Assembly (NCBI RefSeq): GCF_000026545.1
Contig: NC_011601.1
DNA: 64,000 nucleotides
Source: Escherichia coli O127:H6 str. E2348/69
Lineage (GTDB): Bacteria; Pseudomonadota; Gammaproteobacteria; Enterobacterales; Enterobacteriaceae
Strand: one strand, 5' to 3'
This document shows positions 12,001 through 15,000 of the stretch, piece by piece. Position 1 is the stretch's first letter. The number at the start of each line of letters is the position of its first letter. A program made the position numbers.

Positions 12001-15000
12001 TTGAACAAAATATCTCGGCACTGGCACTGGCCGCGCAGGTGATCCCTGGGCATATCATTCATATCACCTCTACGGTGCTGAATATCTTTGCCGTACTGAC
12101 TGCATTCTTTGGCATTTATCTCGGTTTCCACGAGGCCATTAAAGGCATTATTCTCAATCTGTTAAGCCGAATTATTGATACCAGGAAAATTAACTCACGC
12201 ATGCTGACTCTGGCGATCTGCGCTTTTATCGTCATTACGTTGACGATTTGGGTTTCGTTTCGTGTATCGGTGCTGGTGTTCTTTCAGTTGGGAAGCCCGT
12301 TATATGGCATTGTGTCGTGCCTCATTCCATTTTTCCTGATCTCTAAAGTTTCACAACTGAAAAAACTACGCGGGCTAAAAACATGGCTTATCCTGTTTTA
12401 TGGTATTTTGCTGTGCTTTTCGCCGCTATTGAAGCTGATTGAATAAAAGTAACGGGGGCTGCTCACAGCAGCCCCAGACGATGTCGATAGCATTGCAGCA
12501 CAGCCTGGATATGATCCTGAGTCATAAAGGACTGCTCATACGTTTCCATAACAATGGCATTTTCTTTACGTATATCCTGAAAGAGTTTTTCCAGCAATCT
12601 GGGCGCTAACCCCATTGATTCACCCAACAGCAAAAAGTCCTGCCCGATATACTCGCCATAATCACTGTGAAATCCAGGAGCCAGTTCCCGACCGCCTTCT
12701 TCTCGCGTCAATAACGGCAGCGCCAGATAGTTTGAGTAAAAATATTCCGGATAGGGAGCGACAGAAACAAAGTCATACACCGGCGCTAACGCAGGCGTCA
12801 AACCATCGGAGTACACTAAGCCAAAGTTTCGTAAATGCATGTCGTTATTACCCAGCAACCAGGCGTAAACAATGCGACGAAAGAGATCGATTTTAAATGC
12901 GATGTTGTCGTTAACATGGGCAACTAAAAATCGGGCCAGCGTTTCATAGCTGACATATTGTTCGTTATCATTCCCCGTTTTGCCATATTTATCTGTAATC
13001 TGCATCGCGCCATCAAGCTGTTCCTGATGCACTGGCAGCCCCTTGTTATCCCGGTCATAGCGCCGGATAACAAATGCGTATTCAAGCTCTTCCTCTGATT
13101 GTGGTGCAAAACTCAACAGGCCATGCACAGGTACGTCAAATCCCAAACGAGACATCAATGTCATTGTTGCGTGTTCATTTTCGGCCAAACCGGGAAAGTC
13201 GGCTGGAGAGGGCTTAAGGATAAAATTTCCCTGATGATCTACGACGCGGAACTCTCCTTCATCCAGCACTAATTGCAATTTGGGCTGGTAACCGGAAATA
13301 CTCATCCCTTTTTGTTGACGCGGAAGTTCCTGCACAAACTGAGTTCGCGTAAACCCCAGCCGAGGATTCAATTTTGCAGTGCCGCTCAGTCGCTTCAACC
13401 CCTGTGTCGAATATCCGCGCTGTTCGTCACGTTCATTCAACGGCGTTAACAGAATACGACAATTCGCCATTATTCCTCCCAAGGTAAAATCTGGATGGCC
13501 CCCAGCAGATTCTTGCCGTTATCAATAAGCATTCCCAGCAGATCGTTTTCGTCACGATGCTGTATCTGGCTGTAGCGTTGACGCAGCCATCCTTCTGGCG
13601 CCAGTGAGGCGAAATAAGGATGCAACGTCTCACTGGGAAACTGACGCTGTGCGACGGGCAGACTGATTGAGATTGCCGGTCCGTGGTAATCGTGGGCGTA
13701 CTGGAACAAAAAACCACTGTCGTTCTGAGAGAGTTCACCCACTACCTGACCATAGAGCAACACTTTCACTCGCCGATGCATAGTTTCACTCCAAGAACAT
13801 TCGCCACCGCGAACACACTGCCGAATTTAACCTGTTCAGGATCCTTAAAAAGTCGCTTTAACGTGGACGTTGAGATCCCCGTTTGTAGTTCAAGTGTGTA
13901 TAAATCAATGCCCAATTCTTTGCGACGTGCGTTCAGTTGTTCCCCCAAATGACGGGGAGTCTCAATGGTCAGGAGGGGGCGTGGTTGACTAATATTCGGC
14001 CCCTGAATAAGTTTCTTCTGCAACTCCTGGAGTTGGTCGCCGATCGCTTTCAACTCTTGAGCCAGATTTTGTGGTCCTGAGCAGATCATTAAAGAACCTT
14101 TCGATTGATAAAAGACAAAAACAAGATCATTTATGGTCAGATAAATTCGTTAAGTATCACAAATGAACCATTTTTCATTAATGGTTATAATTTAGCTCAT
14201 ATATAACTCATTGGCAAAGAAAAAGGTCAAAAAAGATACATAAATGATAGATAAAGCATAAAAAGGTCATATTTGACATGAGATCAGCATGAAAGCTGAT
14301 CTCATCGGGAGAGTTAAACAGCTGGCTTCTGCGGATTTTCATCCTGATCAACGGCAAAACAAGCTACCAGTTGACCGCCGTAGTCTTTTAGCTGCGGCTG
14401 CAACTGGGTGCAGGGGCCGAAGCGTCGACGACAGCGGGCGTTGAAGGCGCAGCCTGGCGGTGGATTCAGCGGGCTTGGCAGTTCACCGGTAAGTTTGATG
14501 CGTTCGCGACGATCGTCCGGGTTCAGGCGTGGTGTCGCGGAGAGCAGCGCCTGAGTGTACGGGTGGCGCGGGTTATTGAAGATTTGGTCCTTCGTCCCCT
14601 TCTCCACGCAGCGGCCCAGGTACATCACCATCACTTCATCAGCAATGTGCTCCACCACCGACAGATCGTGGGAGATAAAGACATAAGATAGCCCCAGTTC
14701 CTGCTGCAAATCCATCATCAGATTCAGCACCTGCGCACGCACTGAGACGTCCAGCGCGGAAACCGGCTCATCGGCAATCACCACATCCGGGTCGAGCATC
14801 AGACCTCGGGCAATGGCGATACGCTGACGCTGACCGCCGGAGAACATATGCGGATAGCGGTCATAATGCTCGGTTTTCAGGCCGACTTTCGCCATCATCG
14901 ACAGAGCTTTTTCCCGACGCTGTACTTTGCTTAAGCTGGTGTTGATCAGCAGCGGCTCTTCGAGAATCTGCCCAACTTTTTTACGCGGATTCAGCGAACC

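What the first reader, a model, noticed from the sequence alone, without database searches (positions are those of the whole stretch)
14090..14313. Palindrome-rich AT-rich control region upstream of hipB; the module looks like a discrete insertion between convergent housekeeping genes
The 224 bp between the hipB start and the dppF stop is AT-rich and holds inverted repeats (for example AACCAT-N9-ATGGTT near 14165..14186, and the perfect GAGATCAGC-N6-GCTGATCTC at 14283..14310). These are candidate HipB operator sites or the dppF terminator. In the K-12 order as I recall it, yhjV and dppF are adjacent, so the roughly 1.85 kb from 12447 to 14313 behaves as a strain-variable islet. I see no integrase, tRNA or IS at its borders, so the acquisition mechanism is unclear.
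Basis: partly seen in the sequence, partly recalled or inferred. Interest (0 to 1): 0.55.

Follow-up and report, generated by a model that had tools for sequence, protein, structure and literature searches.

The report
HipBST toxin-antitoxin promoter-operator region

Summary
The window is 100% identical to E. coli E2348/69. The three minus-strand genes match HipB, HipS and HipT of PDB 7AB3 over their full lengths, so this is the published tripartite HipBST toxin-antitoxin system. Bærentsen et al. 2023 fused exactly these 224 bp plus 73 bp of hipB to lacZ. The promoter was active and was repressed by HipB or HipBST. The control-region reading is therefore correct and already known.

- **Operators (new here):** a 16-bp palindrome (consensus AGnTCATATATGAnCT) occurs six times, starting 190, 150, 120, 80, 50 and 9 nt upstream of the hipB ATG. 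The same offsets recur in 22 other Enterobacterales loci. Site 3 lies in the spacer of the best promoter candidate. Site 6 covers the start codon.
- **AACCAT-N9-ATGGTT:** it is within chance and is seen only in E. coli.
- **The 11-bp-arm hairpin:** it is non-random. It is most likely a dppF 3' hairpin or insulator, not an operator.
- **Islet:** confirmed. 160 of 5,426 complete E. coli genomes carry it, always at this site. It is a 1,881-bp replacement of 34 bp that rewrites the DppF C-terminus. It has no mobility signature, and hipBST follows dppF in five other genera.

Interest is low to moderate.

The parts
12329..12447 (+). Diverged 3' tail of yhjV linked to the module (mosaic tract)
   Evidence: Compared with the hipBST-negative B2 strain MS7163, yhjV is 99-100% identical up to 12328. 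It then has 23 mismatches in 119 bp. No hipBST-negative genome has flanks more than 94.8% identical to these.
12448..14328 (.). Strain-variable segment (1,881 bp) that replaces 34 bp of the K-12-type yhjV-dppF junction
   Evidence: Junction alignment to the K-12-like locus L001. Present in 160 of 5,426 complete E. coli genomes, one copy each, always chromosomal and next to dppF, at 98.5-100% identity.
12455..12475 (-). Terminator-like hairpin at the end of hipT (9-bp stem, 7 G-C pairs, tail CGTTACTTTT); the hipT stop codon lies inside the stem
   Evidence: Terminator scan.
12463..13470 (-). hipT, toxin kinase (335 aa)
   Evidence: Matches PDB 7AB3 chain C over residues 1-335, E = 2.7e-229. The 1-nt overlap with hipS is as published.
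13470..13781 (-). hipS, antitoxin (103 aa, HipA N-terminal-like)
   Evidence: Matches PDB 7AB3 chain B over residues 1-103. NCBIfam couple_hipA scores 63.7 bits against a cut-off of 27.8.
13766..14089 (-). hipB, HTH repressor (107 aa)
   Evidence: Matches PDB 7AB3 chain A over residues 1-107. The 16-nt overlap with hipS is as published.
14083..14098 (-). Predicted operator O6 (GGTTCTTTAATGATCT); covers the Shine-Dalgarno region and the hipB ATG
   Evidence: 14.3 bits with a matrix trained without any E. coli sequence. A site at offset -9 is found in 20 of 22 other Enterobacterales loci.
14124..14139 (-). Predicted operator O5 (TGACCATAAATGATCT)
   Evidence: 14.4 bits. Offset -50 is shared by 14 of 22 loci.
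14154..14169 (-). Predicted operator O4 (GGTTCATTTGTGATAC)
   Evidence: 11.0 bits. Offset -80 is shared by 16 of 22 loci.
14166..14186 (.).
   Evidence: Present in E. coli alleles only. An inverted repeat with arms of at least 7 bp occurs in 21.5% of shuffles.
14189..14194 (-). Candidate -10 hexamer (TAAATT)
   Evidence: Promoter scan, 9 of 12 matches with a 17-bp spacer. A TAnnnT-like hexamer follows site 3 in the stacked loci. Not verified experimentally.
14194..14209 (-). Predicted operator O3 (GAGTTATATATGAGCT); lies in the spacer between the candidate -35 and -10
   Evidence: 13.9 bits. Offset -120 is shared by 19 of 22 loci.
14212..14217 (-). Candidate -35 hexamer (TTGCCA; TTGCTA in ST131; TTGACA at the same column in Buttiauxella)
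14224..14239 (-). Predicted operator O2 (GTATCTTTTTTGACCT), one of the two lowest-scoring sites
   Evidence: 11.0 bits. Offset -150 is shared by 10 of 22 loci.
14264..14279 (-). Predicted operator O1 (ATGTCAAATATGACCT)
   Evidence: 14.8 bits. Offset -190 is shared by 13 of 22 loci.
14278..14305 (-). Perfect hairpin with 11-bp arms and a 6-nt loop, 8 nt after the dppF stop; candidate dppF 3' hairpin or insulator
   Evidence: RNA folding energy -17.4 kcal/mol and P about 0.0015 in shuffles. An analogous hairpin with one compensatory pair change sits at the same place in Superficieibacter, and stem-loops follow dppF in all dppF-linked loci. No U-tract follows it, so the terminator scan did not call it.
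14314..14328 (-). Module-linked 3' end of dppF (codons KPAV plus stop) replacing the K-12-type R plus stop
   Evidence: A similar tail (...EKPGV*) occurs in the Superficieibacter dppF next to its hipBST.

Best explanation
The 224-bp interval is the autoregulated promoter-operator region of the tripartite hipBST toxin-antitoxin operon of E. coli O127:H6 E2348/69.

Shown by others: this exact fragment drives transcription. HipB alone represses it at high expression, and HipBST or HipBT repress it even at leaky expression.

Inferred here:
- The HipB dimer recognises a 16-bp palindrome with 5-N6-5 geometry, RGnYC-ATATAT-GRnCY, consensus AGATCATATATGATCT.
- The palindrome is present six times, with start-to-start spacing of 40, 30, 40, 30 and 41 bp, roughly 4 and 3 helical turns.
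- Site O3 fills the 17-bp spacer of the best sigma-70 candidate (-35 TTGCCA, -10 TAAATT), so occupancy would exclude RNA polymerase.
- O4 to O6 lie in the predicted ~93-nt leader, and O6 covers the Shine-Dalgarno region and the ATG. They could act as roadblocks.
- O1 and O2 extend the array upstream.
- The regular spacing suggests cooperative loading of several HipB2 or HipB2S2T2 complexes. That would explain why HipT strengthens repression.
- The 11-bp-arm hairpin between the dppF stop and O1 is most likely the 3' hairpin of the dpp transcript. It would limit read-through from the co-oriented dpp operon into hipBST.

The whole module is a strain-variable replacement segment without mobility genes. 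It is most plausibly exchanged by homologous recombination through its conserved flanks, dppF on one side and yhjV on the other.
For: - **Identity of the system:** 100% DNA identity to E2348/69. The three proteins match PDB 7AB3 chains A, B and C over their full lengths.
- **Published function:** pSVN141 holds 224 bp upstream of hipB plus 73 bp of hipB. Its promoter is active and is repressed by HipB and HipBST.
- **Motif enrichment:** 129 sites in 32 hipB upstream regions, against 8.7 expected from dinucleotide shuffles.
- **Test without circularity:** a matrix trained only on 30 non-E. coli loci gives 10 hits of at least 10 bits in the 64-kb window, and 6 of them lie in 14083-14279. Shuffles of the region give a mean of 0.033 sites and never more than 2 in 5,000 trials. 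No other AT-rich stretch of the window has any site.
- **Position, which was not used in training:** 92 of 96 sites in 22 other Enterobacterales loci start within 2 nt of offsets -190, -150, -120, -80, -50 or -9, where chance would give about 12%.
- **Spread across the family:** Pasteurellaceae and Vibrio loci keep the 40/30/40 spacing and Rahnella, Serratia and Pantoea loci show 71/71, with different absolute offsets. The HipB recognition helix LQTG(V/I)SxSTLKRLFKD is conserved across all of them.
- **Within E. coli:** all six sites are retained in ST131, KN93 and the diverged SCPM-O-B-8794 allele, while the inter-site DNA varies.
- **Promoter:** the -35 and -10 candidate comes from the scan, and TTGACA sits in the same column in Buttiauxella.
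- **Hairpin:**
- **Islet:**
- **Geometry precedent:** the HipBA operator of S. oneidensis is GTGTA-N6-TACAC, repeated four times with the fourth copy inside hipB. K-12 hipBA has four operators with gaps of 10, 21 and 10 bp (PMC4150777).
Against: - No binding or footprint data exist for these six sites. The link to HipB is inferred from co-travel with the module and from the published reporter result.
- The motif was first seeded by eye (TCA-W4-TGA). It is AT-rich, like its surroundings.
- The transcription start is unknown. The -10 candidate is weak, and the -35 is not conserved in all genera.
- O2 and O4 score only 11 bits.
- Spacings of 30 and 40 bp are not exact multiples of 10.5 bp, so the same-face argument is loose.
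- The hairpin lacks the U-tract of a canonical intrinsic terminator and was not called by the scan. Its structural conservation rests on one compensatory change in one other genus.
- The direction of the presence/absence polymorphism, gain or loss, was not polarised with an outgroup.
Confidence: 0.78

Rival explanations
1. The palindromes named by the first reader are the HipB operators: AACCAT-N9-ATGGTT at 14166-14186, the 11-bp-arm repeat at 14278-14305, or both.
For: - Both are real inverted repeats.
- AACCAT..ATGGTT lies just downstream of the candidate -10, which is a typical operator position.
- It is retained in the diverged E. coli allele SCPM-O-B-8794.
- The 11-bp repeat is statistically non-random.
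Against: - AACCAT..ATGGTT has no counterpart in any of 30 non-E. coli loci, although the HipB recognition helix is conserved in them.
- A repeat of that size occurs in 21-56% of shuffles.
- Its retention within E. coli can be explained by its overlap with the -10/start region and with O4.
- The 11-bp repeat sits 190-216 nt upstream of hipB, directly after the dppF stop. Other dppF-linked loci have canonical dppF terminators at the equivalent place.
- Neither repeat resembles the repeated motif.
Confidence: 0.07
2. The repeated 16-bp AT-rich palindrome is bound by a host factor, or is a structural DNA feature such as curved DNA or a nucleoid-protein site. HipB would then bind elsewhere in the fragment.
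For: - The motif is AT-rich with T-tracts next to it.
- No direct HipB-DNA data exist for this subfamily.
Against: - The motif and its fixed offsets travel with hipB into different genomic contexts and different orders: Enterobacterales, Pasteurellales and Vibrionales.
- HipB is the only protein of the module with a recognised DNA-binding (HTH) domain.
- Repression of this fragment needs only HipB.
- No site occurs in any other AT-rich stretch of the window.
- A 5-N6-5 palindrome fits the known HipB operator geometry of S. oneidensis.
Confidence: 0.1
3. The module is not an acquisition in E. coli. It is an old resident of the dppF 3' flank in Enterobacteriaceae that most E. coli lineages have lost or replaced with the 34-bp junction.
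For: - hipBST lies directly downstream of dppF in Superficieibacter, Enterobacter sp. ENT03, Siccibacter (2 genomes) and Atlantibacter (2 genomes), in the dpp-bcs neighbourhood.
- The E. coli alleles are deeply diverged from one another (93-100% for HipB).
- No mobility gene, tRNA or target duplication was found, and no close plasmid or phage copy exists.
Against: - Only 2.9% of complete E. coli genomes carry it.
- The K-12-type junction has its own bidirectional terminator that is not derived from the module.
- The sharp 81%-identity tract in yhjV looks like an imported or long-separated haplotype.
- Direction cannot be decided without outgroup Escherichia sequences.
Confidence: 0.35

Closest known systems
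hipBST of E. coli O127:H6 E2348/69 (Vang Nielsen et al. 2019, PMC6581861; Bærentsen et al. 2023, PMC10627512; PDB 7AB3-7AB5)
   Same: It is this locus. The DNA is 100% identical, and the three proteins match the crystallised chains over their full lengths. The same 224-bp fragment was used as the PhipBST reporter.
   Different: Nothing differs in the genes. The papers I could search show repression by HipB but do not map operators, a transcription start, the genomic junctions or the population distribution.
hipBA operator arrays of E. coli K-12 (TATCC-N8-GGATA, four copies) and Shewanella oneidensis (GTGTA-N6-TACAC, four copies)
   Same: - All have multiple copies of a short palindrome bound by an HTH HipB dimer, arranged regularly over the promoter.
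- S. oneidensis shares the 5-N6-5 geometry (16 bp) and has one operator inside the hipB ORF.
- K-12 has gaps of 10, 21 and 10 bp, which I convert to alternating short and long spacing of about 28/39/28 bp start to start, compared with 30 and 40 bp here.
   Different: - The half-site sequence is different. TATCC-N8-GGATA is absent from the region.
- There are six sites rather than four.
- The central 6 bp are conserved and AT-rich.
- The repressor belongs to a three-protein system in which HipS, not HipB, is the antitoxin.
Legionella pneumophila HipBST operators O1-O3 (Lin et al. 2023, PMC10653801)
   Same: This is a tripartite HipBST with several conserved inverted-repeat operators upstream of hipB that are bound by HipB alone. 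HipT joins the HipB-DNA complex.
   Different: There are three 18-nt sites with 6-nt repeats and 53-bp gaps. The authors state that their motifs are absent from the hipBST promoter of E. coli. HipB of Legionella is unrelated in sequence to HipB of the E. coli system.
Rho-independent (intrinsic) terminators, for example the K-12 yhjV/dppF bidirectional terminator
   Same: A stable G+C-containing stem-loop lies immediately after a stop codon. Other dppF-linked hipBST loci carry canonical terminators at this position.
   Different: No U-tract directly follows the stem. The nearest run, CCUUUUUAUG, begins 12 nt downstream, after O1. The scan did not call it.

Membership tests
HipBST tripartite toxin-antitoxin system (E. 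coli O127 type) | Three co-oriented, overlapping genes: HTH hipB, about 100-aa hipS (HipA N-terminal-like) and about 335-aa hipT (HipA C-terminal kinase) | tested here: met
   ORFs at 14089..13766, 13781..13470 and 13470..12463, with overlaps of 16 nt and 1 nt as published. NCBIfam couple_hipA passes its cut-off for HipS.
HipBST tripartite toxin-antitoxin system (E. coli O127 type) | Sequence identity to the characterised proteins | tested here: met
   Full-length matches to PDB 7AB3 chains A, B and C, with E = 8.7e-67, 2.5e-68 and 2.7e-229.
HipBST tripartite toxin-antitoxin system (E. coli O127 type) | HipT phosphorylates TrpS; HipS neutralises HipT; HipB represses transcription | not testable with these tools
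   Taken from PMC6581861 and PMC10627512.
HipB-type autoregulatory operator array | Repeated palindromic sites upstream of and overlapping hipB, beyond chance | tested here: met
   Six sites of at least 10 bits against 0.033 expected. Offsets are conserved in 22 other loci.
HipB-type autoregulatory operator array | Sites overlap the core promoter | tested here: inconclusive
   O3 lies in the spacer of the best -35/-10 candidate, but no transcription start data are available.
HipB-type autoregulatory operator array | Direct binding of HipB to the sites | not testable with these tools
   Only fragment-level repression is published.
K-12 HipBA operator (TATCC-N8-GGATA) | Presence of the consensus sequence | tested here: not met
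   No match in 14000-14400.
Intrinsic terminator (for the 14278-14305 hairpin) | Stable stem-loop immediately downstream of the gene | tested here: met
   11-bp perfect stem, -17.4 kcal/mol, 8 nt after the dppF stop.
Intrinsic terminator (for the 14278-14305 hairpin) | U-rich tract within 0-2 nt after the stem | tested here: not met
   The stem is followed by GUCAAAUAUGACC, and the scan did not report it.
Mobile genomic island | Integrase or transposase, tRNA or attachment site, flanking direct or inverted repeats | tested here: not met
   The nearest tRNA is tRNA-Pro at 20908-20984. No flanking repeats were found. The only long ORFs matching a known family are hipB, hipS and hipT. No close copy exists on plasmids or phages.

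The most novel reading that the evidence does not exclude
The six phased 16-bp palindromes are the so far unmapped operators of the E. coli-type HipBST family. They would nucleate a cooperative multi-complex HipB2S2T2 assembly that coats about 200 bp, from upstream of the promoter to the hipB start codon. This architecture (40/30-bp alternation, with the last site on the ATG) would be conserved from Enterobacterales to Pasteurellales and Vibrionales. The toxin would act as co-repressor by bridging neighbouring operators, as HipA does in K-12.
Probability: 0.35. Interest if true: 0.5.

Novelty: new member of a known kind. Interest (0 to 1): 0.3.

Why it matters
The module, its promoter fragment and its repression by HipB are already published, so the finding as written adds little.

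The useful addition is a concrete, testable operator map for the E. coli-type HipBST family. The searchable literature has operators only for the unrelated Legionella HipB, and that paper states its motifs are absent from the E. coli promoter. The map tells experimenters which bases to mutate to separate autoregulation from toxin neutralisation. It also suggests that the multi-operator, alternating-spacing layout of K-12 hipBA is a general Hip property despite unrelated operator sequences.

The population result matters for how the element is interpreted in pathogens, including the ST131 genome examined here (L064). The module is a 2.9% replacement allele at a fixed site, linked to dppF in several genera, with no mobility genes.

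Tried and rejected
- **K-12 HipB operator consensus:** absent from the region.
- **Rfam:** an E-value scan of 9000-15500 found nothing inside the islet. It found only rdlD, STnc490 and weak sok-like hits further left.
- **tRNA search and flank-repeat search:** no attachment-site signature.
- **HipT against plasmids and phages:** no relative of 60% identity or more. The best is 47% on an Aliivibrio fischeri plasmid. A plasmid or phage vector for the enterobacterial module is therefore unsupported.
- **Intrinsic-terminator scan:** it did not call the 14278-14305 hairpin, so I do not file it as a canonical terminator.
- **My count of inverted repeats with arms of at least 6 bp:** it counts nested spacers of one repeat several times, so I do not use it.
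- **The 51-aa plus-strand ORF at 14289..14444:** it overlaps the hairpin and the dppF 3' end and has no support. I treat it as spurious.
- **A ~70-bp tandem-duplication origin of the operator pairs:** I considered this, but the inter-site spacers show no similarity by eye.
- **Papers not obtained:** Schumacher et al. 2015 is not held. The legend of the eLife figure supplement showing the reporter construct is not held.
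Full report
**What is there.** The window is 100% identical to the chromosome of E. coli E2348/69, the O127:H6 EPEC strain. Between yhjV (plus strand, stop at 12444-12446) and dppF (minus strand, stop at 14314-14316) lie three overlapping minus-strand genes.
- hipB, 14089..13766, 107 aa.
- hipS, 13781..13470, 103 aa.
- hipT, 13470..12463, 335 aa.

Their products match chains A, B and C of PDB 7AB3 over their full lengths. This is the published tripartite HipBST toxin-antitoxin system. 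HipT is a kinase that inhibits TrpS, HipS is the antitoxin, and HipB is the HTH regulator (PMC6581861; PMC10627512). It is not a classical hipBA.

**Checking the observation.**
- The interval 14090..14313 is 224 bp and 29.5% G+C, against 49.6% for the window.
- AACCAT-N9-ATGGTT is at 14166..14186, more fully AACCATT-N7-AATGGTT. Perfect inverted repeats of at least 6 bp arise in 56% of dinucleotide shuffles of the region, and of at least 7 bp in 21.5%. This repeat is unremarkable on its own.
- The second repeat has 11-bp perfect arms at 14278..14288 and 14295..14305, with a 6-nt loop. A repeat of this size occurs in about 0.15% of shuffles.

[quoted passage not shown] The promoter was active. 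HipB or HipBST repressed it, while HipS or HipT alone did not. Leaky hipBST or hipBT expression was enough for repression, whereas hipB alone needed high expression. The control-region interpretation is therefore correct and already demonstrated at the fragment level. Neither that paper nor the 2019 paper maps operators. The only HipBST operators in the searchable literature are three 18-nt sites of the unrelated Legionella HipB. Those authors state that their motifs are absent upstream of the E. coli hipBST. Two further searches found no mapping for the E. coli type.

**Finding the operators by comparison.** A scan of one genome per species returned 59 loci encoding HipT relatives. I located hipS and hipB in them. 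Read side by side, the hipB upstream regions are unalignable in general but share a recurring palindrome such as GGTCATATATGACC or GCTCATAAATGAGC.
- Iterative matrix refinement gave a 16-bp palindromic motif, consensus AGATCATATATGATCT, with 11.9 bits of information. It found 129 sites in 32 regions against 8.7 expected from shuffles.
- To avoid circularity I retrained on the 30 non-E. coli loci only and scanned the whole 64-kb window. Of 10 hits of at least 10 bits, six lie in 14083-14279.
- Shuffles of the region give 0.033 sites on average and never more than two in 5,000 trials. None of the other AT-rich stretches of the window has a site.
- The six sites start 190, 150, 120, 80, 50 and 9 nt upstream of the hipB ATG. 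In window coordinates they are O1 14264-14279, O2 14224-14239, O3 14194-14209, O4 14154-14169, O5 14124-14139 and O6 14083-14098.
- Position was not used in training. Even so, 92 of 96 sites in 22 other Enterobacterales loci start within 2 nt of these same six offsets, where chance would give about 12%.
- Pasteurellaceae and Vibrio loci keep the 40/30/40 spacing with shifted origins. Rahnella, Serratia and Pantoea loci show 71/71.
- The HipB recognition helix, LQTG(V/I)SxSTLKRLFKD, is conserved throughout.
- Within E. coli, all six sites are retained in ST131, KN93 and a diverged allele (HipB 93% identical), while the DNA between sites varies.
- The direct repeat AAAAAGGTCA (14220 and 14260) is simply the right half of O2 and O1 plus a T-tract.

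**How it most likely works.** The best sigma-70 candidate is -35 TTGCCA (14217..14212), a 17-bp spacer and -10 TAAATT (14194..14189). Buttiauxella loci have TTGACA in the same column, and a TAnnnT-like hexamer follows site 3 in most loci.
- O3 fills the promoter spacer, so a HipB dimer bound there should exclude RNA polymerase.
- O4 to O6 fall in the predicted ~93-nt leader. O6 covers the Shine-Dalgarno region and the start codon.
- O1 and O2 extend the array upstream.
- The motif has 5-N6-5 geometry, the same as the S. oneidensis HipB operator GTGTA-N6-TACAC. That operator is repeated four times, with the fourth copy inside hipB. K-12 hipBA has four operators with gaps of 10, 21 and 10 bp, also an alternating short-long pattern (PMC4150777).
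- I infer cooperative loading of several HipB2 or HipB2S2T2 complexes. This would account for the published co-repressor effect of HipT.

Binding, the transcription start and cooperativity are all inferences. Only fragment-level repression has been shown.

AACCAT..ATGGTT overlaps the left end of O4 and the predicted start region. It is found only in E. coli alleles. I regard it as incidental, or at most as a lineage-specific 5' stem of the mRNA (-5.4 kcal/mol).

The 11-bp hairpin begins 8 nt after the dppF stop and abuts O1.
- Superficieibacter, whose hipBST also follows dppF, has GAGACCAGCG-TAA-CGCTGGTCTC at the same place, with one compensatory pair change.
- Four of the other five dppF-linked loci (L005, L008, L010, L013) have canonical stem-plus-T-run terminators before their operator arrays. 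L023 also has one after dppF, but its dppF-hipB interval is about 1 kb.
- dpp and hipBST are co-oriented. The hairpin is therefore best read as the dpp 3' hairpin or insulator.
- It lacks an adjacent U-tract and is not a canonical terminator.

**The islet.**
- In K-12-like genomes yhjV and dppF are 29 bp apart.
- The module-specific DNA is 12448..14328, which is 1,881 bp. It replaces 34 bp: the K-12 bidirectional terminator plus the last codon and the stop of dppF. DppF therefore ends ...QKPAV* instead of ...QR*.
- Exactly 160 of 5,426 complete E. coli genomes carry it. Each has one copy, always chromosomal and next to dppF, at 98.5-100% identity. At least one carrier is labelled O25b:H4-ST131.
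- Compared with a hipBST-negative B2 strain, yhjV is 99-100% identical up to 12328 and then about 81% identical over its last 119 bp. The dppF side is normal from 14329 onward.
- No module-negative genome has these flanks (best 94.8%).
- There is no tRNA nearer than tRNA-Pro (CGG) at 20908 and no flanking repeats. No relative of 60% identity or more exists on plasmids or phages.
- hipBST also sits directly after dppF in Superficieibacter, Enterobacter sp. ENT03, two Siccibacter genomes and two Atlantibacter genomes. In two of these (Superficieibacter and Enterobacter sp. ENT03), ORFs I recognise from memory as bcs (cellulose) genes follow hipT, unconfirmed by any family search.

The most economical reading is exchange of a whole haplotype by homologous recombination through conserved flanks. 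Whether E. coli gained it or mostly lost it is unresolved.

**Verdict.** The finding is real and its general interpretation is right, but the system and the promoter function of these exact 224 bp are already published. I rate it a new member of a known kind (HipB-type operator arrays), of low to moderate interest.

Noticed in passing
window 10109-10351 and 10592-10867 (Ldr-like ORFs, minus strand); rdlD at 10265-10330 and 10748-10813: There are two tandem copies of the ldr/rdlD type I toxin-antitoxin unit between bcsG and yhjV. The K-12-like genome has one Ldr gene here, while MS7163 and the ST131 genome have three, so copy number varies between strains.
   Followed up: partly
window 9895-10018, minus strand: A full-length, high-scoring match to the Rfam family STnc490, an Hfq-binding sRNA (142 bits), lies just left of the ldr/rdl repeats.
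   Followed up: no
window 14314-14328: The module changes the C-terminus of the housekeeping ABC ATPase DppF from ...ENPQR* to ...ENPQKPAV*. DppF tails differ in length in every dppF-hipBST genus examined.
   Followed up: partly
window 12329-12447: There is a sharp mosaic breakpoint inside yhjV. The last 119 bp are about 81% identical to other E. coli, while the rest of the gene is 99-100% identical to a B2 strain. RefSeq names the two yhjV alleles differently: 'SLC5/6 family protein' and 'aromatic amino acid transport family protein'.
   Followed up: partly
L004, L005, L008, L010, L013, L023 (about 2100-5000 in each): hipBST lies immediately downstream of dppF in Superficieibacter, Enterobacter sp. 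ENT03, Siccibacter and Atlantibacter. In some of these, ORFs that look like bcsQ by their N-terminal sequence (my recognition, not confirmed by a family search) follow hipT. This points to a shared hot spot or an old syntenic position.
   Followed up: partly
L004 about 3320-3381: In Superficieibacter the hipB leader carries an extra G+C-rich hairpin (GCCCGCTTCGCGAGGC...). It displaces the operator array by about 21 bp and removes the counterparts of O5 and O6.
   Followed up: no
window 18391-18544: The alignment to strain MS7163 breaks for about 150 bp between dppB and dppA, but the K-12-like genome aligns through. This indicates a small strain-variable intergenic element.
   Followed up: no
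window 12455-12475: The hipT stop codon lies inside a G+C-rich terminator-like hairpin. This hairpin also replaces the K-12 bidirectional yhjV/dppF terminator. On the yhjV strand it has no U-tract.
   Followed up: no
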